Sequence record: OR896834.1
DNA: 64,000 nucleotides
Source of the DNA: Escherichia phage Baret
Reading direction: 5' to 3' (one strand)
Shown here: positions 38,294-64,000 of the stretch, piece by piece
Layout: each line of letters begins with the position of its first letter
Numbering within the stretch: the stretch's first letter is position 1
Program-made: the position numbers and the translations under genes
The notes under the pieces: model-generated
What the model saw: only the letters and a program-made list of their open reading frames with translations
Told to the model about the DNA's origin: nothing
The model's database searches: none

Positions 38294-38812
38294 GTGCATA
38301 CAAAAGTTTTTGATAGTTTGGTAAAGAAAGGCGTTGTTACTAACGAGCCCTTCTATATAACCGCAGAACTAATCCAGAGATTTATGGAAGAATATATAAA
38401 TCTTTCAGGAACCAATGGTAATACCAAAAAGAATACAAATACTATGTATTCGAGAAAACTTGCTGCACTTTCCTTTATAAAGTTTAAGCAGGAAAATAAA
38501 CTTCCTATTTCTGAAGGTTTTGTATACTGTATTAGTAATCCTGCATGGAAAAATCAGTATAAAATAGGTATGAGTCAAAATCCAAAAGAGAGATTAGCTC
38601 AATATCAGACTTATTCCCCTTATAGGGATTATAAGTTAGAGCATTGGTCTTTTTGGTTTGACAAACGAAAAGGTGAAAAACTAATTCACCAGTATTTCAA
38701 AGATTTAAAAGAACATGAGTGGTTTAGTATAAATTCTAGGGATCTTAGTAAATATCTAGAACGTATTAACTCTAGTTCTGACTTATATGGTTCCTTAGCT
38801 CTAATTGGTTAG
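38294..38812 (+). CDS. T5orf172/GIY-YIG-like domain protein (172 aa, GTG start)
   Basis: GFVYCISNPAWKNQYKIGMSQNPKERLAQYQT matches the T5orf172 (MUG113) signature; 3' end overlaps tRNA-Asn by ~24 nt. Confidence 0.55.
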   Translation: MHTKVFDSLVKKGVVTNEPFYITAELIQRFMEEYINLSGTNGNTKKNTNTMYSRKLAALSFIKFKQENKLPISEGFVYCISNPAWKNQYKIGMSQNPKERLAQYQTYSPYRDYKLEHWSFWFDKRKGEKLIHQYFKDLKEHEWFSINSRDLSKYLERINSSSDLYGSLALIG

Positions 38813-56117: not shown

Positions 56118-56369
56118 ATGGAAAACATGACTAAAAATGAAATGGCTAACGTTCTGGCAATTCTCCTCGACATGCAAGGATTTGAGGGGCAACTGATGAA
56201 AATGTCTATTCCGGCGATGAAGAAGATGTATGATTCCCTGAATAAGAATGCTATGGCATTCAACCTTGCAAAACAAGAAGCACGTTTTGCTAAAGAGCAT
56301 CAGGCAACTGCCGAACGTCGTGCAGCATCTTTTGAGCGTGAAGTTAAGCAACTGAAAGGTAAGAAATAA
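56118..56369 (+). CDS. hypothetical protein (83 aa)
   Basis: ATG 8 nt after AGAGAGG. Confidence 0.5.
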   Translation: MENMTKNEMANVLAILLDMQGFEGQLMKMSIPAMKKMYDSLNKNAMAFNLAKQEARFAKEHQATAERRAASFEREVKQLKGKK

Positions 56370-56533
56370 TGGAAAGAATATCCATTTTTATGCTATCACT
56401 CCTTTTAGGAGTGTTAATATATAGTATAGTTTCTCTTCACATACGTTTAGCAGAACTAGACAATTCTATCCACGAGTTAAATGTGGAGATGTGTAAACTA
56501 GTTCCAAACAATGAAAAATGTAAGGATATTTAA
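56369..56533 (+). CDS. hypothetical membrane micro-protein (54 aa), not in ORF track
   Basis: ATG overlapping upstream stop; N-terminal TM helix. Confidence 0.35.
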   Translation: MERISIFMLSLLLGVLIYSIVSLHIRLAELDNSIHELNVEMCKLVPNNEKCKDI

Positions 56534-58449: not shown

Positions 58450-58457
58450 TTTTAGGA

Positions 58458-58486
58458 GGCCAGGACTTAATTGTTCTGGCCTTTTA
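58458..58486 (+). terminator. Rho-independent terminator
   Basis: GGCCAG...CTGGCC hairpin followed by TTTTATGTTTT. Confidence 0.65.
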
Positions 58487-58505: not shown

Positions 58506-58703
58506 ATGAAAGCACTAGATAATTACTTAAAGGCTAAATATAGTCCTACAGAAGATCAATCTGCTGTAACTTGTGAAATAAGTCGAAATAATACAGTACG
58601 ATTGGCTCAAAAAGGCGGGGGAACATCTGCCAGTATTATTTGGCTATCCGAAGAACAAGCAAAAGACTTGTACCATAAACTAGACAAGTTATTTAACAGG
58701 TAG
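58506..58703 (+). CDS. hypothetical protein (65 aa)
   Basis: Track ORF. Confidence 0.45.
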   Translation: MKALDNYLKAKYSPTEDQSAVTCEISRNNTVRLAQKGGGTSASIIWLSEEQAKDLYHKLDKLFNR

Positions 58704-58704
58704 T

Positions 58705-59151
58705 ATGAGAGAAAAAGTAAATGAATTATTAATCGAGGAAGCTAACAACTTTCCAATAAATAGGTTCATCAAATCGGATGGATCTATTAATAGAACTAAA
58801 ATTAAACAGCTACATCCCGACTTCCAACAAGAAGCACTAAACCTTATATTTATCAAGAAAGCTGTTGCAGCTCATGGAGCTTTCTTCGGGTATGAGCGTG
58901 TAAATTATAAGACAATGCAACAGCAAGTTGAGATCTATTGTCCAGATCACGATGGTTATTACTGGCAGACTGCTAGATCTCATTTAGAAGGGCATGGTTG
59001 CCGACTGTGTGCACACAAGGTTGTGCAGCGTGTCACGGATTATGGAACTTATACCGTACCAGCATGTTACCATAAATTTGTAATTGACGATAATCATATA
59101 GTTTGGTATAATAAGTTTTCAAAGCTAAGAATGGAGATAAGTAGTGAGTAG
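58705..59151 (+). CDS. hypothetical protein with Cys/His-rich domain; paralogue of N-terminus of 61160-61888
   Basis: LHPDFQQEALNLIFI...YERVNYKT...QTARSHLEGHGC-x2-CA shared with downstream gene. Confidence 0.5.
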   Translation: MREKVNELLIEEANNFPINRFIKSDGSINRTKIKQLHPDFQQEALNLIFIKKAVAAHGAFFGYERVNYKTMQQQVEIYCPDHDGYYWQTARSHLEGHGCRLCAHKVVQRVTDYGTYTVPACYHKFVIDDNHIVWYNKFSKLRMEISSE

Positions 59152-59434
59152 CTATATTGTATGGTCAAACCCACTAGCAGCACTTAGTAACAAACTATTT
59201 AAAACAACGTGGGGATATAATGAAATAGACTTAGGTAGTCGCCCAATACCAAACAAACACCCCTTAGTTCCAGAGCTGTATAGGGTAGGGATAAATGGCA
59301 CGGAGTATTTGGTTGATAAATTTGACAGAAAACGTCTACTAGAGGGTATCTACGATAATTCTACATCGATAAATGAATTAGTAGAACATGCCCAAATATA
59401 TGATAAAAGCTGGATGTTAATATGGAGATCATAG
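59144..59434 (+). CDS. hypothetical protein (96 aa)
   Basis: Track ORF. Confidence 0.45.
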   Translation: MSSYIVWSNPLAALSNKLFKTTWGYNEIDLGSRPIPNKHPLVPELYRVGINGTEYLVDKFDRKRLLEGIYDNSTSINELVEHAQIYDKSWMLIWRS

Positions 59435-59646
59435 TAATTATTTTAGCAGTTATGTTATTTATTGTAACATTTGCTATTATGCGCAGAGCTAGAGAACTAG
59501 CGGAAGATATAACAAAATTACGTGGTGAGTTGGCTGCTCTTAAATTACAGCGAGAGGCTTTAAAGTTGTTTGTGGTTCAGGGTAGCGTAGAGCATACAGC
59601 AGAAGACTTCATCATATATCTCAAACGTTACATGGGAGTTAAATAA
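59422..59646 (+). CDS. hypothetical membrane protein (74 aa)
   Basis: Track ORF. Confidence 0.4.
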   Translation: MEIIVIILAVMLFIVTFAIMRRARELAEDITKLRGELAALKLQREALKLFVVQGSVEHTAEDFIIYLKRYMGVK

Positions 59647-59831
59647 TGGAAACTCTTTTTCTTTTAATGCTCGTAGGTTCCTTGCTAGTTATATTAGCAC
59701 TTCTACTGATCTGCAATATTCTTAATAATAAGAATCTAGAGCTAAAGTGTGAAAACCAAATCCTTAATCGTGAACTTAAACAATATAACATAGCAGCGCA
59801 CAAGCTACTAGACAAATTGGAGAATAAGTAA
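59646..59831 (+). CDS. hypothetical membrane protein (61 aa)
   Basis: Track ORF. Confidence 0.4.
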   Translation: METLFLLMLVGSLLVILALLLICNILNNKNLELKCENQILNRELKQYNIAAHKLLDKLENK

Positions 59832-60442
59832 TGACTTTATATGCACAACAACCTGTTCAAGTAGTACCAGACCATGAATTAAATACATGGGATTATGATT
59901 TTAAAGACTTAACTGCCACTGTACAGTTCAAATCTATGAAGCTAACCTTTGCGCACACTAATATTAAAGCATGTAAAGATTTTGAAGGTAGGCTCAACAA
60001 CGCTCGTAAGATTTTTGGCAAGGCTCGCATCCCAGCTGATAATCTAATTAATACACTAATCGATGCTGGTTATAAACTTGTAAAGACTGAGGTTAACCGT
60101 CCTAGTACTCCTGTGACTATTCGAGATCCGTGGCAGTCAGGGCCAATTACAATGTGGAACAGCCCTAAAATAACGTCGGATTTGCACAATGTTCCATGCG
60201 GTGGCGTTATAGAAAATAATTCCTCATATCGAGTTGGTGAAGATTATGGACCTTCTGCACAATTGAAACATACTCAAGAAGCTTTTGAATCTGATATGAA
60301 AAGCGTAGCGCCTGTGGATACTGAAGGTTTTAGAAGTCCCATCTATGTTACTCACTTTAATAATCTTAGGCCTGGGGGTATAAATGATACTATCCTTGAA
60401 GCGTTGGGAGCTGCTATTAATGAAGATAAGAGGGGTAATTAA
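59831..60442 (+). CDS. hypothetical protein (203 aa)
   Basis: Track ORF. Confidence 0.5.
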   Translation: MTLYAQQPVQVVPDHELNTWDYDFKDLTATVQFKSMKLTFAHTNIKACKDFEGRLNNARKIFGKARIPADNLINTLIDAGYKLVKTEVNRPSTPVTIRDPWQSGPITMWNSPKITSDLHNVPCGGVIENNSSYRVGEDYGPSAQLKHTQEAFESDMKSVAPVDTEGFRSPIYVTHFNNLRPGGINDTILEALGAAINEDKRGN

Positions 60443-61167
60443 TGAGTATAAAAAAGAATTTAGCAGAGATTATTAAGTTAGCTAGAGCTTGTAATGGAAA
60501 ATGTGTTTCTCAGCTTAATGAACTAGAGGCACATGCAGTAGCGTTTTGTGCAGAGTTTTACCCTGCATATATTAACGCTAGTGGACAGCCGAAATATAAT
60601 AAGGATGCCGAAGAAGTTACGTTAGCTCCTTCATATATTAGCTTGCGTCGTTTAATTCAAACCGTTGATCCTACTATTAAAGGATTCTCAGCAGATTCAT
60701 TCCACGTCTTTGCAGATAAAGAACTCCCGTATTTTAAAGAAGGAAATGCAAAGTCATGTTTAGAATGTTATCCTAATATACTGATGATTCCTCAAAAGCA
60801 ATGTAAATACGATCATCTTCCTAGACTTACAAAGAAAGTAGCACCACCTTATTCTTCTCTATCTGAATTAAAGCTAGGAATTGTATCTACACTTGCGCAG
60901 ATTCATCTAAGTATAGTTGACGACTCAACAACATCTAACCCTATTCTAGACGCTGCTCACTTTGAAATTTTACGTGATCCTGAACAAGCTAGAAAAGTTG
61001 CTAAGTCTGTTAAGTTTGATATATCAACAATTCTTGACACTAAACAAGAAACTAGACCTAGAGGAAGTGTAGATTATTCTGCGCTAAATTCCGAGTCATC
61101 TTACTTAGCAACATTCCTTTTCATGGCGTCAAAAGGGGTTATTCTAAAGGTTAATAAAGATGGATGA
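60442..61167 (+). CDS. hypothetical protein (241 aa)
   Basis: Track ORF. Confidence 0.5.
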   Translation: MSIKKNLAEIIKLARACNGKCVSQLNELEAHAVAFCAEFYPAYINASGQPKYNKDAEEVTLAPSYISLRRLIQTVDPTIKGFSADSFHVFADKELPYFKEGNAKSCLECYPNILMIPQKQCKYDHLPRLTKKVAPPYSSLSELKLGIVSTLAQIHLSIVDDSTTSNPILDAAHFEILRDPEQARKVAKSVKFDISTILDTKQETRPRGSVDYSALNSESSYLATFLFMASKGVILKVNKDG

Positions 61168-61888
61168 TTTACGTGCTGAAATTAATAAAAAGTTACGAGA
61201 GGAAGCCCGGAGGTTTCCTCTTAAAAACTTTTTGAAGTCAAATGGCTCTACTAATATAACGAAGATTAGGCAACTTCACCCTGACTTCCAACAAGAGGCC
61301 TTAAACCTTATCTTTATTAGGAAAGCTTTAAAAGTCCAGAAAGAAGAGTATGGGTATGAAAGAGTTAATTATAAGACAGCCAATCAGTTAGTAGAGATAT
61401 GGTGCTATAAACATAAAGGATACTTTATGCAAACTGCTAGATCTCACCTAGATGGGCACGGTTGTTTACAATGTGCTAGGGAAAGCAACCTAAATACACC
61501 TATCGAGAAACCGGAGGTAGAAGAAGATGTTCAGTCCCCCACATATCTCTATATCTTCTCTAATAAAGATCAGTCTAGGAAGAAATTAAAGACAAAGATT
61601 GGGGTTTCTAGAGAGCCACATCAAAGGTTTAAGAATCTAGAGTATGATAAATTGCGTGTGCCGGGTTTTGAAGATATGGAAGTATTTGGTATCTACCAGT
61701 ATAAGAAAGGATCGAAAGAACTCGCTTACAAAATAGAACACCAAGCACATAAATTTTTCGAGAATAAATTTGCTAACCATTATAAATTCGATGGAGCAAA
61801 AGAGATATTCAACATTAAAGCTGTAGAGGCAGAAGAATATCTATTAAGTCAAGGTTGCATAAAAATTTACCCAACTCCAAACTCATGA
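61160..61888 (+). CDS. two-domain protein: Cys/His-rich N-domain (paralogue of 58705) + T5orf172/GIY-YIG-like C-domain; possible homing-endonuclease-like
   Basis: N-domain shared with 58705-59151; C-domain TYLYIFSNKDQSRKKLKTKIGVSREPHQRFKNL resembles the T5orf172 signature also seen at 38294. Confidence 0.5.
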   Translation: MDDLRAEINKKLREEARRFPLKNFLKSNGSTNITKIRQLHPDFQQEALNLIFIRKALKVQKEEYGYERVNYKTANQLVEIWCYKHKGYFMQTARSHLDGHGCLQCARESNLNTPIEKPEVEEDVQSPTYLYIFSNKDQSRKKLKTKIGVSREPHQRFKNLEYDKLRVPGFEDMEVFGIYQYKKGSKELAYKIEHQAHKFFENKFANHYKFDGAKEIFNIKAVEAEEYLLSQGCIKIYPTPNS

Positions 61889-61915
61889 CAAAAATTTAAA
61901 AGTAACGAAATCTGC

Positions 61916-61945
61916 TTGACATTCGTGAGAATAATGTGTTATAAT
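61916..61945 (+). promoter_or_regulatory. consensus sigma70 promoter (TTGACA-18-TATAAT) firing into the repeat region
   Basis: ttgacattcgtgagaataatgtgttataat; no ORF with RBS downstream. Confidence 0.6.
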
Positions 61946-62353
61946 AATCTCATAGATTAAAAACATCAACTTGTTTTTACCTCTAGGCCGTAGATTTACA
62001 TCATTCCTCGTAGGAAAACACTTGATGACGGTTCTGTTCGCAGGTTCTCGTCAATTGTTCTTCCACACCGAGACTTAGGAGGATGTATCAAATCGCACGC
62101 GCCTAGAGGGACTAACTCTCATGAAATGGGGGTATATTTACTTTTAAATAACTAAAAAATATTTAAAGGCAATATCTGTGTTCAAGATGATACACCTGTT
62201 GCCGCTCATCTGCTAGGATGGCACAACACTTTCTTCTAGACTCCTAAGTTTCTAGGAATAGTTGAGCACTAACTCTAGAGTTTACATTAAACTTTAAATC
62301 TGCTTCTCTAGTTAACTCAGGCGGTTTTCATATTCCTAGAAACTCCAGCAATA

Positions 62354-62390
62354 GGCGGTTAATACAGGGCGGTTATAGGGAGGGCGGTTA
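62354..62390. repeat. three direct copies of GGCGGTTA
   Basis: taGGCGGTTAatacagGGCGGTTAtagggagGGCGGTTAttt. Confidence 0.6.
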
Positions 62391-62433
62391 TTTCTAAGAG
62401 ACATTTTTTGAAAACACATTTCCAGAAATTACT

Positions 62434-63034
62434 GTCGGATTTGCACATTGTGTTTCTAGAAATTTATGGTCGGATTTGCACAAACGCCTAAGTTTTTAGG
62501 AACTCTTACTCTCCTGAAAATACCAGCATTATTTCGGGCCGAAGGCCCGTGATTGCCTGAGTTTTTAGAGCCACAGAAATTTTCACTTGTCAAGCTATTT
62601 TGCCACCTTTAGCAAATAAAATCTTACTTTATCTCCACTAATCTCAAATTAACCCAAATCTTCTCAACTCTTCCCCAAAAACGCAGCAAATCAGGTGCTC
62701 CGCACCAAACATGCTGCTCCTCCAGTTTCTCCTCTTATTTTCTCTCGCTCTCTCATCTTCTCCTCAAACCTATACAATCACACACTCTCCAATCGAAGTC
62801 ACAAAAATCTTGTCGGTTTCGCACACCTCAACACATGTCGGATCTGCACATATTCTAGCTAATTCCACAGGATTCGAACGCAGTTCGTGATTGCTGGAGT
62901 TTCTAGAAAAATTCATTGTCGGATTTGCACACTATAAAAATTTTTCGGGTCGGATTTGCACACTACCAAAAATTGTCGGATTCGCACATACACGCCCACA
63001 CGTAACACCCGTGGAGCAATGTCGGATTTGCACA
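62434..63034. repeat. eight dispersed direct repeats, consensus GTCGGATTTGCACA
   Basis: Copies at ~62434, 62469, 62812, 62837, 62918, 62949, 62975, 63021 (variants GTCGGTTTCGCACA, GTCGGATCTGCACA, GTCGGATTCGCACA); irregular spacing. Confidence 0.8.
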
Positions 63035-63039
63035 AAAGC

Positions 63040-63057
63040 GCAGGGCAATTGCCCTGC
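63040..63057. repeat. 18-bp perfect palindrome
   Basis: GCAGGGCAATTGCCCTGC. Confidence 0.7.
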
Positions 63058-63063
63058 TCGCCT

Positions 63064-63267
63064 GAATGCGAATGATAATGAGAATCAATCTTATTTAAAA
63101 AGCGGAATGAGAATGATAATGATTCGCATTTAAGAAAGGGAATGAGAGCTATTCAAGAAGTGAAATGATTCTCATTTAAGAAAGGAAATGATTATCGGTT
63201 AGACAGTGGAATGCGAATGATAATGATTCGCATTTAAAAACGGAAGTGAGAAACACTGTTATTTAAG
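63064..63267. repeat. tandem array of ~30-35-bp imperfect repeats with internal palindrome
   Basis: About 7 units, consensus gGAATGaGAATGATAATGATTCGCATTTAAgaaag; inner inverted repeat AATGCGAAT...ATTCGCATT. Confidence 0.75.
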
Positions 63268-63360
63268 TTATCCACAGACTTATCAACAGCACGATTTGAC
63301 TTGACAGAATCCTAGCCATTTTGAGGCGTTATTAACAGACTTATCCACAGCTTATCCTAC
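63268..63360. promoter_or_regulatory. cluster of DnaA-box-like 9-mers
   Basis: TTATCCACA at 63268-76 and 63341-49 (exact consensus); TTATCAACA at 63280-88; TTATCCTAC at 63352-60. Confidence 0.6.
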
Positions 63361-63633
63361 TGTATAAATATACAGTATTCCTATGTAGTGAATAATTCTA
63401 ATATAGGCCTAAAACGTCCTGAATCGCATTCTAACGCGTTTAATTTTGATGGGGATACTAAAACAAGGGCAAAATTGGAGGAGGCTTAAAAATTAGTTAG
63501 CTTGCTAACGATCACACAAGGCGACATGTAACACCTTAATCATTAGCAGGCTAACCATCGCGGGCGCGGTTAAATGAGAATCACTCTCATTTGAGAATTG
63601 GGGGCACTCCCTGGTAGTTACGCCCCGTTATTA

Positions 63634-63828
63634 TTAGTCTGGTAGTCGATGCGTGATCTTTTCCTCCTCCCCGTAGGAATCCACCAAATGCTGATAATAA
63701 CCATCGGCATCATAAATAACGCTATCATATTCGCCACGCTCGACCGCTTGCCGATTCTCCGGCGTATCGGGCACGTAAAAAACATCAACCATTGTACTGA
63801 TTTTGGTTACAACAATTTTATTGTTCAT
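63634..63828 (-). CDS. hypothetical protein beyond the repeat region (64 aa from internal ATG)
   Basis: Minus-strand track ORF; start set at MNNKIVV preceded by AGGGG. Confidence 0.4.
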   Translation of the reverse strand: MNNKIVVTKISTMVDVFYVPDTPENRQAVERGEYDSVIYDADGYYQHLVDSYGEEEKITHRLPD

Positions 63829-64000
63829 AATAACCCCTAGTAAATATATTTTTGCCAATAGTGGCGAACGTTATCGCCACCAGCGGAATCATTTGCAGCC
63901 TCAACATTACCAGCGAAAATATATAATCTCATTGCGCCACCTTTCGAAACGCTGTTTCAATACTATCCGCAGTGGATTGAATATACGCGCCTTTCATTAT

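What the first reader, a model, noticed from the sequence alone, without database searches (positions are those of the whole stretch)
58705..61888. Shared Cys/His-rich N-domain in two genes, one fused to a T5orf172/GIY-YIG-like domain
Proteins at 58705 and 61160 share ~100 aa (LHPDFQQEALNLIFI...YERVNYKT...QTARSHLEGHGC-x2-CA). The downstream copy adds a C-terminal segment resembling the T5orf172 signature also seen at 38294. This suggests a modular, possibly DNA-targeting or homing-like, family duplicated near the repeat boundary.
Basis: seen in the sequence. Interest (0 to 1): 0.45.

Follow-up and report, generated by a model that had tools for sequence, protein, structure and literature searches.

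The report
Homing nuclease and its nuclease-free paralogue
In this T5-like phage, a sporadically present mobile nuclease gene (GIY-YIG/T5orf172 type) has a zinc-finger DNA-binding half that derives from a conserved, nuclease-free phage gene 2.4 kb upstream; this is a well-supported example of a known kind of selfish element, not a new system.

Summary
ORFs 58705-59151 (p1, 148 aa) and 61160-61888 (p2, 242 aa) share 63% identity over 103 aa (E 4e-47), and p2 alone adds a T5orf172 domain.

p1 is the orthologue of T5p022. It is conserved in about 390 T5-like genomes, is under purifying selection and has no nuclease fold.

p2 is a discrete 737-bp cassette found in only 34 records, always at the same site. 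Its synonymous divergence is lower than its neighbours', substitutions linked to its presence cluster at both junctions, and one copy is disrupted. It therefore behaves as a free-standing homing endonuclease gene.

p2's N-domain nests inside the p1 clade (100% bootstrap). Other T5-like phages carry a nuclease-only gene at the same site, so p2 most likely arose when a resident minimal nuclease captured p1's DNA-binding domain.

The architecture and the nuclease-free relative (CapR) are already published for ICP1 phages, so this is a new member of a known kind.

The parts
58705..59151 (+). p1: nuclease-free zinc-finger protein, 148 aa, orthologue of T5p022 / T5.023
   Evidence: ORF. Orthologue of T5p022 by synteny and 94% nucleotide identity. 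PHROG 4605, E 1.6e-86. About 388 T5-like records hold it. dN/dS 0.02-0.06. AF2 pLDDT 81.8.
58705..58848 (+). p1 leader (aa 1-48): helix, then a short beta-hairpin; specific to Demerecviridae
   Evidence: AF2 secondary structure. Full-length tblastn matches occur only in T5-like phages. The resemblance to a degenerate zinc-finger repeat is not significant (3.4 bits).
58849..59022 (+). p1 zinc-finger unit (aa 49-106), CapR/DUF4379/DUF723 type; ligands C79, H82, C99, C102
   Evidence: An independent repeat-unit HMM scores 68.9 bits, E 9e-23. Ligand columns are invariant. Profile search finds 20,155 representative clusters.
59023..59148 (+). p1 C-terminal all-beta unit (aa 107-148), unassigned; not shared with p2
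61160..61888 (+). p2: zinc-finger + T5orf172/GIY-YIG nuclease, 242 aa; free-standing homing-endonuclease-type gene
   Evidence: ORF. Pfam T5orf172/MUG113. phrog_681 'endonuclease' and phrog_18411 'homing endonuclease'. AF2 pLDDT 78.4. dN/dS about 0.04.
61160..61477 (+). p2 N-domain (aa 1-106): p1-type leader plus one zinc-finger unit (ligands C82, H85, C102, C105)
   Evidence: 63% identical to p1. Nests inside the p1 clade with 100% bootstrap. Aligns with the nuclease-proximal repeat of three-repeat T5orf172 endonucleases.
61478..61537 (+). p2 inter-domain linker (aa 107-126), predicted disordered
   Evidence: pLDDT below 50 for residues 111-124. The nuclease-only alleles begin just after it.
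61538..61885 (+). p2 GIY-YIG (T5orf172) catalytic domain (aa 127-242); conserved Y129/Y131, K146-I-G148, R156, E193, H197, E215
61166..61902 (+). Cassette (737 bp) present in HEG-positive genomes and absent from HEG-negative genomes
   Evidence: Replaced by 6 unaligned bp in HildyBeyeler and IrisVonRoten. The same 743-bp versus 12-bp interval is seen in 8 versus 6 other genomes. The nuclease-half DNA occurs in 34 records.
61125..61165 (+). 3' end of the upstream 241-aa gene carrying substitutions linked to nuclease alleles; left part of the presumptive homing site
   Evidence: About 9 mostly synonymous differences are fixed between HEG-positive and empty alleles. They are shared by HEG-positive Epseptimaviruses and by the HMD-P2 nuclease-only allele.
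61903..61945 (+). Promoter-like site (TTGACA-18-TATAAT) whose -35/spacer is allele-specific; right edge of the variable locus
   Evidence: 12/12 consensus match. The spacer differs in every allele type, and homology resumes at the -10 box.
60442..61167 (+). Upstream 241-aa gene of unknown function; its stop codon overlaps p2's start (ATGGATGA)
   Evidence: No Pfam match. Orthologues precede every allele type at this locus.
38294..38812 (+). Separate T5orf172/MUG113 ORF (172 aa) without a zinc-finger module; not closely related to p2
   Evidence: Pfam. No BLAST similarity to p2. 28% identity in the alignment, with catalytic columns shared.

Best explanation
p2 is a free-standing homing-endonuclease-type gene of the T5orf172 (GIY-YIG superfamily) class. 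Its N-domain, a leader plus one CapR/DUF4379/DUF723 treble-clef zinc finger, binds DNA. Its C-terminal GIY-YIG domain, tethered by a flexible linker, cuts. The inferred mechanism is as follows. During mixed infection, p2 cleaves T5-like genomes that lack the cassette, at or near the junction between the 241-aa gene and the downstream promoter. Recombinational repair from the p2-carrying genome then copies the cassette and a few tens of flanking bases into the cut genome. p2 has no promoter of its own and is translationally coupled to the upstream gene. p1 (T5p022) is the resident, nuclease-free relative. It is a small early-expressed zinc-finger DNA-binding protein, probably a sequence-specific regulator in the manner of CapR. 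p2 arose when a minimal nuclease-only T5orf172 gene already living at this locus acquired a copy of p1's N-domain. Shown here: the homology, the folds, the sporadic and site-specific distribution, the younger age of the cassette, the junction-linked substitutions, the direction of domain transfer, and purifying selection. Inferred only: DNA binding, cleavage, the target site and p1's regulatory role.
For: Homology and domains. GIY-YIG fold. Catalytic-position residues and zinc ligands are invariant. Distribution: 34 records carry p2 against about 388 with p1 and about 444 T5-like records overall. Insertion site: identical in 9 HEG-positive genomes of two genera, with a 12-bp interval in 6 empty genomes. 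Age: p2 has the lowest dS of five neighbouring genes, for example 0.51 against 1.2-1.3 versus EscoHU1 and 0.00 against 0.15-0.64 versus DaisyDussoix. Allele-linked substitutions cluster at both junctions. One copy (HMD-P3) is disrupted by a 109-bp insertion and truncated before E215. Distant module-bearing T5orf172 genes lie antisense between structural genes. p2's N-domain nests in the p1 clade, with 100% bootstrap against the Proteus p1 and the outgroups. Nuclease-only alleles, 38-42% identical to p2's C-half, occupy the same site in DT57C and HMD-P2, and about 56 records hold these two types. p1: dN/dS 0.02-0.06; no nuclease fold; syntenic orthologues in Klebsiella and Proteus phages. Published precedents: CapR binds DNA through the zinc finger and represses transcription (PMC8096241); 87% of T5orf172 HEGs carry CapR/DUF723/DUF4379-type fingers, and Odn captured a foreign DNA-binding domain (PMC10448857).
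Against: There is no biochemical evidence for this protein, and cleavage, target and zinc binding are all inferred. A single zinc-finger unit plus leader is a small recognition surface for a site-specific enzyme. Nuclease-only alleles persist at the same site without any DNA-binding domain, so the domain is not needed for residence there. The presence/absence pattern and low dS could also arise from ordinary recombination at a hotspot, without nuclease-driven homing. dN/dS of about 0.04 across two genera, with only 1 damaged copy seen among those examined, suggests selection for function, which would also fit a domesticated role. Elevated identity in the 241-aa gene and downstream of the promoter is also seen in empty alleles, so it is not HEG-specific. 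The Pfam models for DUF723/DUF4379/CapR do not hit p1 or p2 directly. The tree is neighbour-joining on about 106 residues.
Confidence: 0.7

Rival explanations
1. p2 is a domesticated, Odn-like weapon and not a selfish homing gene. Having captured p1's DNA-binding domain, it cuts at p1's binding sites in competing T5-like phages (or another invader) and so benefits its own phage. Its patchy distribution would then reflect accessory-gene turnover.
For: The N-domain is derived from the resident p1 lineage, which parallels Odn's capture of RepA_N (PMC10448857). Strong purifying selection acts on both halves across genera (dN/dS about 0.04). Three p2-carrying genomes have lost p1.
Against: The cassette always sits at one site, with allele-linked substitutions exactly at its edges, and it is younger than its flanks. 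These are the expected footprints of homing. No p1 binding site is known, and the empty-junction sequence does not recur elsewhere in the window. The two roles are not mutually exclusive.
Confidence: 0.17
2. The presence/absence pattern comes from ordinary recombination and deletion at a hypervariable locus. p2 is an inactive or non-specific nuclease that does not drive its own spread.
For: At least four alternative contents occur between the 241-aa gene and the -10 box: empty, two or more nuclease-only types, and p2. T5 has an unrelated gene there. Neighbouring genes also come and go.
Against: Catalytic-position residues and fold are intact. dN/dS is 0.04. Every occupant of the site is a nuclease of the same clade, which points to nuclease-driven maintenance.
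Confidence: 0.08
3. p1 is a decaying remnant of a p2-like endonuclease that lost its catalytic domain.
For: PHROG 4605 groups both proteins. Some pipelines label p1 orthologues 'homing endonuclease'.
Against: p1 is conserved in about 388 records and in Klebsiella and Proteus phages at the same position. dN/dS is 0.02-0.06. Its C-terminus is a conserved, confidently folded beta unit and not a GIY-YIG fragment. p2 branches inside the p1 clade, not outside it.
Confidence: 0.03

Closest known systems
T5orf172 homing endonuclease genes with CapR/DUF723/DUF4379 zinc fingers (ICP1 gp174, gp165 and others; Barth, Dunham & Seed 2023, PMC10448857)
   Same: Same two-part architecture: N-terminal treble-clef zinc-finger unit(s) and a C-terminal T5orf172 domain. 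Also free-standing, sporadic, and located at boundaries of sequence exchange.
   Different: p2 has a single finger preceded by a Demerecviridae-specific leader, whereas relatives commonly have 2-14 repeats. Its finger domain is traceable to a resident non-nuclease gene of the same genome family. The ligand pattern is C-x2-H...C-x2-C, whereas CapR has CxxC...CxC.
CapR of the Vibrio cholerae PLE satellite (Netter et al. 2021, PMC8096241)
   Same: Like p1, it is a small (about 15 kDa) nuclease-free protein homologous to the zinc-finger N-domain of T5orf172 HEGs. CapR has been shown to bind DNA through the Cys ligands and to repress a promoter.
   Different: CapR is encoded by a satellite and was derived from HEGs of its helper phage. 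p1 is encoded by the phage itself, is conserved across the family, has an extra C-terminal beta unit, and here appears to be the donor of the finger domain, not the recipient. Its function has not been tested.
Odn, the origin-directed nuclease of ICP1 (Barth et al. 2021, PMC8263062)
   Same: A T5orf172 nuclease whose specificity domain was captured from an unrelated DNA-binding protein.
   Different: Odn captured RepA_N from a satellite and acts as an anti-satellite defence. p2 captured a zinc-finger domain from its own lineage and shows the footprints of homing.
I-TevI and the T4 Seg / Mob free-standing endonucleases
   Same: A GIY-YIG catalytic domain joined by a flexible linker to a separate DNA-binding region (I-TevI also contains a small zinc finger). 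Intergenic, promoter-less insertion. Spread with co-conversion of flanking sequence.
P-TflXVII (DT57C_000012) and related 118-123-aa GIY-YIG genes of T5-like phages
   Same: They occupy the identical genomic site, have the same overlapping start with the upstream gene, and are 38-42% identical to p2's C-half with shared lineage-specific inserts.
   Different: They have no DNA-binding half at all. p2 is the only allele family at this site with the zinc-finger N-domain.

Membership tests
T5orf172 / GIY-YIG superfamily nuclease domain (p2 C-half) | Match to Pfam PF10544 (or the sister family PF13455) above the curated gathering score | tested here: met
   PF10544 scores 27.6 bits against 20, and PF13455 scores 23.5 against 22.3.
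T5orf172 / GIY-YIG superfamily nuclease domain (p2 C-half) | GIY-YIG alpha/beta fold | tested here: met
T5orf172 / GIY-YIG superfamily nuclease domain (p2 C-half) | Conserved catalytic-position residues (beta1 Tyr, beta2 K/Y-I-G, Arg, helix Glu/His, metal-binding Glu) | tested here: met
   Y129/Y131, K146-I147-G148, R156, E193, H197 and E215 are invariant in alignments with family members. Their assignment to catalytic roles is by analogy only.
T5orf172 / GIY-YIG superfamily nuclease domain (p2 C-half) | Metal-dependent DNA cleavage | not testable with these tools
   Requires biochemistry.
CapR / DUF4379 / DUF723 treble-clef zinc-finger repeat (p1 and p2 N-module) | Significant match to the repeat-unit profile | tested here: met
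   A profile of the T5 module finds 20,155 clusters, with up to 14 units per protein. The same residues of those proteins are labelled DUF4379/DUF723/CapR by Pfam; for example, P0015 residues 73-126 match CapR at 38.3 bits against a cut-off of 24.2. The reverse test, an HMM built from 400 non-T5 units, hits p1 residues 49-105 at 68.9 bits, E 9e-23.
CapR / DUF4379 / DUF723 treble-clef zinc-finger repeat (p1 and p2 N-module) | Direct hit by the curated Pfam models PF14311 / PF05265 / PF21817 | tested here: not met
   There is no Pfam hit for p1, p2 or their N-domains even at E <= 10, although the database's precomputed tag lists PF05265. Membership therefore rests on the custom profiles. The T5 module is a divergent member.
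CapR / DUF4379 / DUF723 treble-clef zinc-finger repeat (p1 and p2 N-module) | Four conserved zinc ligands in two knuckles about 20 residues apart | tested here: met
   C82, H85, C102 and C105 (p2), equivalent to C79, H82, C99 and C102 (p1), are invariant in 23- and 17-sequence alignments. The AF2 model places a beta-hairpin plus helix around them, with pLDDT 87-92.
CapR / DUF4379 / DUF723 treble-clef zinc-finger repeat (p1 and p2 N-module) | Zinc-dependent DNA binding | not testable with these tools
   Shown for CapR only (PMC8096241).
Free-standing homing endonuclease gene (p2) | Sporadic presence at one fixed site among otherwise syntenic genomes | tested here: met
   34 of about 444 T5-like records carry it. 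The junctions are identical in 9 HEG-positive genomes, and 6 empty genomes have a 12-bp interval.
Free-standing homing endonuclease gene (p2) | Cassette shares a more recent ancestor than the flanking backbone (lateral spread) | tested here: met
   p2 has the lowest dS of five genes in 6 of 7 genome comparisons. Nucleotide identity peaks on the cassette.
Free-standing homing endonuclease gene (p2) | Flanking co-conversion, or target-site changes in HEG-carrying alleles | tested here: inconclusive
   Allele-linked substitutions cluster in the last ~35 nt of the upstream gene and in the promoter spacer. The same left-hand variant also accompanies a nuclease-only allele, and the broader flank conservation is not HEG-specific.
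Free-standing homing endonuclease gene (p2) | Cleavage of the HEG-less allele and nuclease-dependent gene conversion | not testable with these tools
   Requires cleavage assays and phage crosses.
Domesticated / stand-alone HEG-type DNA-binding protein, CapR-like (p1) | Homologous to a HEG DNA-binding domain, lacks any nuclease domain, and is kept by selection | tested here: met
   63% identity to p2's N-domain. No Pfam nuclease domain and no nuclease fold. dN/dS 0.02-0.06. Conserved synteny across three host groups.
Domesticated / stand-alone HEG-type DNA-binding protein, CapR-like (p1) | Sequence-specific binding and transcriptional repression | not testable with these tools
   No operator could be identified in silico.

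The most novel reading that the evidence does not exclude
The p2 fusion may be a 'Rosetta stone'. In the many T5-like genomes that carry only the 118-123-aa nuclease at this site, the conserved p1 protein could supply targeting in trans, with its unassigned C-terminal beta unit docking the minimal nuclease. p1 would then be the specificity subunit of a split, two-gene site-specific nuclease, and p2 the fused single-chain version. This would explain why, among the 16 related genomes examined, p1 was missing only from p2-carrying ones (KS_S14, slur09, EscoHU1). It would also give the ubiquitous T5 early gene T5p022 a function.
Probability: 0.08. Interest if true: 0.7.

Novelty: new member of a known kind. 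Interest (0 to 1): 0.38.

Why it matters
This analysis gives a concrete, testable function to two genes that are annotated almost everywhere as 'hypothetical protein', or wrongly as terminase, tail or capsid proteins. One of them (T5p022) is present in nearly every T5-like phage.

It also documents, in the lineage that gave the T5orf172 domain its name, the same evolutionary pattern described for ICP1 phages. DNA-binding modules move between nucleases and regulators. Here the direction runs from a resident gene to the nuclease, and three allele states are visible at one locus: empty, nuclease-only and fused.

The predicted homing site is about 80 bp spanning the end of the 241-aa gene and the promoter of a conserved structured RNA. 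BASEL-collection phages are available for each allele state, so direct tests should be straightforward. HEG turnover at this site also matters for comparative genomics and for engineering T5-like therapeutic phages.

Tried and rejected
- **Direct Pfam and NCBIfam scans of the N-domain:** no hit even at E <= 10. Classification had to come from custom profiles.
- **Word-index homologue search with p2's C-half alone:** nothing found. The full-length query found only 4 proteins. An alignment query with distant phage endonucleases was needed.
- **p1's C-terminus as a truncated GIY-YIG remnant:** rejected. AF2 gives an all-beta unit, and there is no nuclease neighbour.
- **The leader as a degenerate upstream zinc-finger repeat:** MAFFT aligns it that way and AF2 predicts a hairpin there, but the HMM score is 3.4 bits, which is not significant. 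Left as a suggestion only.
- **Recurrence of the empty-junction sequence elsewhere in the window (a possible shared p1/p2 operator):** only generic promoter hexamers matched.
- **Broad co-conversion tracts:** the high identity of the 241-aa gene and of the ~300 nt after the promoter also occurs in empty alleles, so it was dropped as HEG-specific evidence.
- **First bootstrap run:** it gave meaningless supports because the trees were rooted differently. I recounted as bipartitions.
- **Rfam on 61800-64000:** no match.
- **Pfam on neighbouring variable genes** (IrisVonRoten extra gene, T5p017, the 241-aa gene and its orthologues): no domains.
- **p2 as the enzyme that makes T5's genomic nicks:** rejected. 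All T5-like phages have nicks (T5 literature), but only about 8% carry p2.


Full report
**What the window is.** The region matches 444 phage records, nearly all T5-like phages of Escherichia and Salmonella (Demerecviridae, Tequintavirus/Epseptimavirus). The closest annotated relative is DaisyDussoix, at 94% identity. Against the T5 annotation, the + strand of the window runs through the early genes T5p034 to T5p017, toward the injection stop signal and the left terminal repeat. p1 (58705-59151) is the orthologue of T5p022 (T5.023), a 'hypothetical protein'. p2 (61160-61888) is the last gene before the ORF-free region that leads into the repeat.

**The observation.** p1 (148 aa) and p2 (242 aa) align without gaps over 103 residues at 63% identity, E = 4e-47. 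No third copy exists in the window. p2 residues 129-226 match Pfam T5orf172 and MUG113 above their gathering scores, and p1 has no Pfam domain. PHROGs places both proteins in phrog_4605 and matches p2 to 'endonuclease' and 'homing endonuclease' families. The ORF at 38294 is also a T5orf172 protein, but it has no zinc-finger module and is only distantly related to p2.

**The shared N-domain.**
- An exhaustive HMMER search with a profile of the T5 N-domain found 20,155 representative clusters at E <= 1e-3. The matches fall on profile positions ~49-105, and single proteins hold up to 14 tandem copies.
- Pfam labels those same stretches DUF4379 ('probable treble-clef zinc finger'), DUF723 and the CapR homology domain. 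For example, P0015 residues 73-126 are both the best match to my profile and a 38-bit CapR match.
- In the reverse direction, an HMM built from 400 repeat units of non-T5 proteins (consensus EFIEKAKKVHGDKYDYSKVEYKNSKTKVKIICPKHGEFEQTPNSHLRGSGCPKCGKEK) hits p1 residues 49-105 at 68.9 bits, E = 9e-23.
- The four ligand positions (p2 C82, H85, C102, C105) are invariant in 23 sequences.
- The curated Pfam models themselves do not hit p1 or p2, so the T5 module is a divergent member.
- The first ~48 residues (helix, short hairpin, helix) align in full only with T5-like phages. Their resemblance to a decayed repeat is not statistically supported.

**p1 is a real, separate gene.**
- Its model (pLDDT 81.8, pTM 0.67) shows the shared module followed by a five-strand beta unit at residues 106-144.
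- Against predicted viral structures, the module matches p2's orthologue first, then multi-repeat endonucleases, 'restriction enzymes' and a few small single-module proteins.
- p1 occurs in about 388 records, including Klebsiella T5-like phages and Proteus phage RP7 at the same position, with the C-terminal unit conserved.
- dN/dS is 0.02-0.06 within Tequintavirus.
- KS_S14, slur09 and EscoHU1 lack p1, so it is dispensable.

**p2 behaves as a mobile cassette.**
- The nuclease-half DNA is in only 34 records.
- In HildyBeyeler and IrisVonRoten, homology with the window stops at 61165 and resumes at 61903, with 6 unaligned bases between.
- Across 15 genomes (this window plus 14 relatives), every carrier has the same 743-bp interval and every non-carrier has 12 bp. 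HMD-P3 has 852 bp because of a 109-bp insertion that truncates the protein before E215.
- The site is the same in Tequintavirus and Epseptimavirus.
- p2's ATG overlaps the stop of the upstream 241-aa gene (ATGGATGA).
- p2 has the lowest synonymous divergence among five neighbouring genes. Against EscoHU1 it is 0.51 versus 1.2-1.3, against TrudiRoth 0.56 versus 0.68-1.48, and against DaisyDussoix 0.00 versus 0.15-0.64.
- Substitutions that separate carriers from empty alleles cluster in the last ~35 nt of the 241-aa gene (mostly synonymous) and in the -35/-10 spacer of the downstream promoter. All alleles become identical again from the -10 box onward.
- Broader flank conservation is not specific to carriers.
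- dN/dS of p2 is about 0.04 in both halves.

**Origin of the fusion.**
- In a neighbour-joining tree of N-domains, the split (E. coli/Salmonella/Yersinia p1 + Klebsiella p1 + p2) against (Proteus p1 + outgroup repeats) has 100% bootstrap support. p2 falls outside (enterobacterial + Klebsiella p1) in 72% of replicates and is sister to enterobacterial p1 in 25%. So p2's N-domain descends from the p1 lineage.
- DT57C ('putative homing endonuclease P-TflXVII', 118 aa) and HMD-P2 ('GIY-YIG nuclease family protein', 123 aa) carry a nuclease-only T5orf172 gene at exactly this site. It starts at the position equivalent to p2 residue ~127, is 38-42% identical to p2's C-half, and shares lineage-specific inserts.
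- All allele types are bounded by the stop codon of the 241-aa gene and by the -10 box. The HMD-P2 allele shares the carrier-type 3' end of the 241-aa gene.
- About 49 records hold the DT57C type and 7 the HMD-P2 type. Further types exist, including in Klebsiella phages.
- The simplest history is that a resident minimal nuclease acquired a copy of p1's DNA-binding domain.

**Comparison with the literature.**
- Netter et al. 2021 (PMC8096241) showed that CapR, a 15.5-kDa nuclease-free homologue of the N-domains of ICP1 T5orf172 HEGs, binds DNA through its cysteine ligands and represses the capsid operon.
- Barth et al. 2023 (PMC10448857) found CapR/DUF723/DUF4379-type fingers, often repeated, in 87% of 229 T5orf172 HEGs. 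They also described domain exchange, including Odn's capture of RepA_N.
- Skutel et al. 2023 (PMC10644984) note that HEG turnover is the main source of local differences among T5-like genomes.
- I found no paper that discusses T5p022 or this gene pair.
- The finding is therefore a new member of a known kind. Its added value lies in the inferred direction of domain capture, the three-state locus and a concrete predicted target.

**What remains inferred.** DNA binding, zinc binding, cleavage, the target site, active homing (as opposed to passive recombination) and p1's role are all untested.

Noticed in passing
window 61916-62145 (+): Candidate structured small RNA immediately after the p2 cassette. 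A perfect sigma-70 consensus promoter (TTGACA-18-TATAAT with TG, 61916-61945) is followed by about 190 nt that fold at -64.2 kcal/mol against -40.6 +/- 3.6 for shuffles (z = -6.5), ending in a terminator-like hairpin (62115-62133) and a U-run. There is no ORF above 35 aa on that strand and no Rfam match. It is 95-100% conserved in 109 of 117 matching T5-like records and mostly unannotated, and T5 itself lacks it. Covariation evidence is thin: 7 compensatory pairs, all from the one divergent sequence (EscoHU1), which also breaks about 14 pairs. The presumptive homing site of p2 overlaps this promoter.
   Followed up: partly
window 59013-59151 (3' third of p1): Synonymous sites are almost frozen here among Tequintaviruses: 0-3 synonymous differences against 17-25 in the N-terminal two thirds. 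This points to a constraint at the DNA level. The stretch contains an 11/12 promoter-like site (59084-59112, TTGACG-17-TATAAT), equivalent to the 'putative promoter' annotated inside T5p022, and it overlaps the start of the next ORF (59144).
   Followed up: partly
window 58513-58704 (65-aa ORF just upstream of p1): This short gene has no nucleotide similarity to the equivalent segment in most close relatives, although both flanks are 94-98% identical. Only the Epseptimavirus TrudiRoth matches it (92%). This looks like a small mosaic replacement next to p1.
   Followed up: no
window ~60442 (boundary between the 203-aa and 241-aa genes): A second indel hotspot. IrisVonRoten, SIA3lw and I14 carry an extra 489-bp gene here, DT57C a 342-bp gene and TrudiRoth a 309-bp gene. 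The IrisVonRoten protein has no Pfam domain. Nucleotide identity to relatives also jumps from about 75% to about 95% at this point. T5 replaces the 241-aa gene and everything up to window 62181 with the unrelated T5p017 ('33.8 kDa early protein').
   Followed up: partly
window 56369-56533 compared with L001:1001-1537: Judged by gene order only (not aligned at base level), DaisyDussoix, IrisVonRoten, SP01 and HildyBeyeler carry a 537-bp HNH_3 homing-endonuclease gene (Pfam E 5.7e-11) where this window, like T5, has only a 54-aa ORF. This is another HEG presence/absence site in the same early region.
   Followed up: partly
window 38294-38812 (+): A third T5orf172/MUG113 ORF (172 aa) whose N-terminal 74 residues have no zinc finger and no Pfam match. 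It is 28% identical to p2's nuclease domain. Its mobility was not examined.
   Followed up: partly
public records matched by window 58705-59151 and 61160-61888: Annotation problems in the databases. p1 orthologues are labelled 'putative terminase' (HMD-P3, ESCO30), 'minor tail protein' (LmqsSP1) or 'homing endonuclease' (SIA3lw, where it is fused with the upstream ORF). A 2.6-kb record named 'Listeria phage LM 4-14-1' is 100% identical to the p2 region and is presumably mislabelled or a contaminant. vB_EcoS_I14 is filed under Felixounavirus although this region is T5-like.
   Followed up: no
window 58453-58486 (+): A strong terminator-like hairpin (14 pairs followed by a T-run) lies between the 145-aa ORF and the ORF65-p1 pair, which suggests that p1 begins a separate transcription unit.
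   Followed up: no
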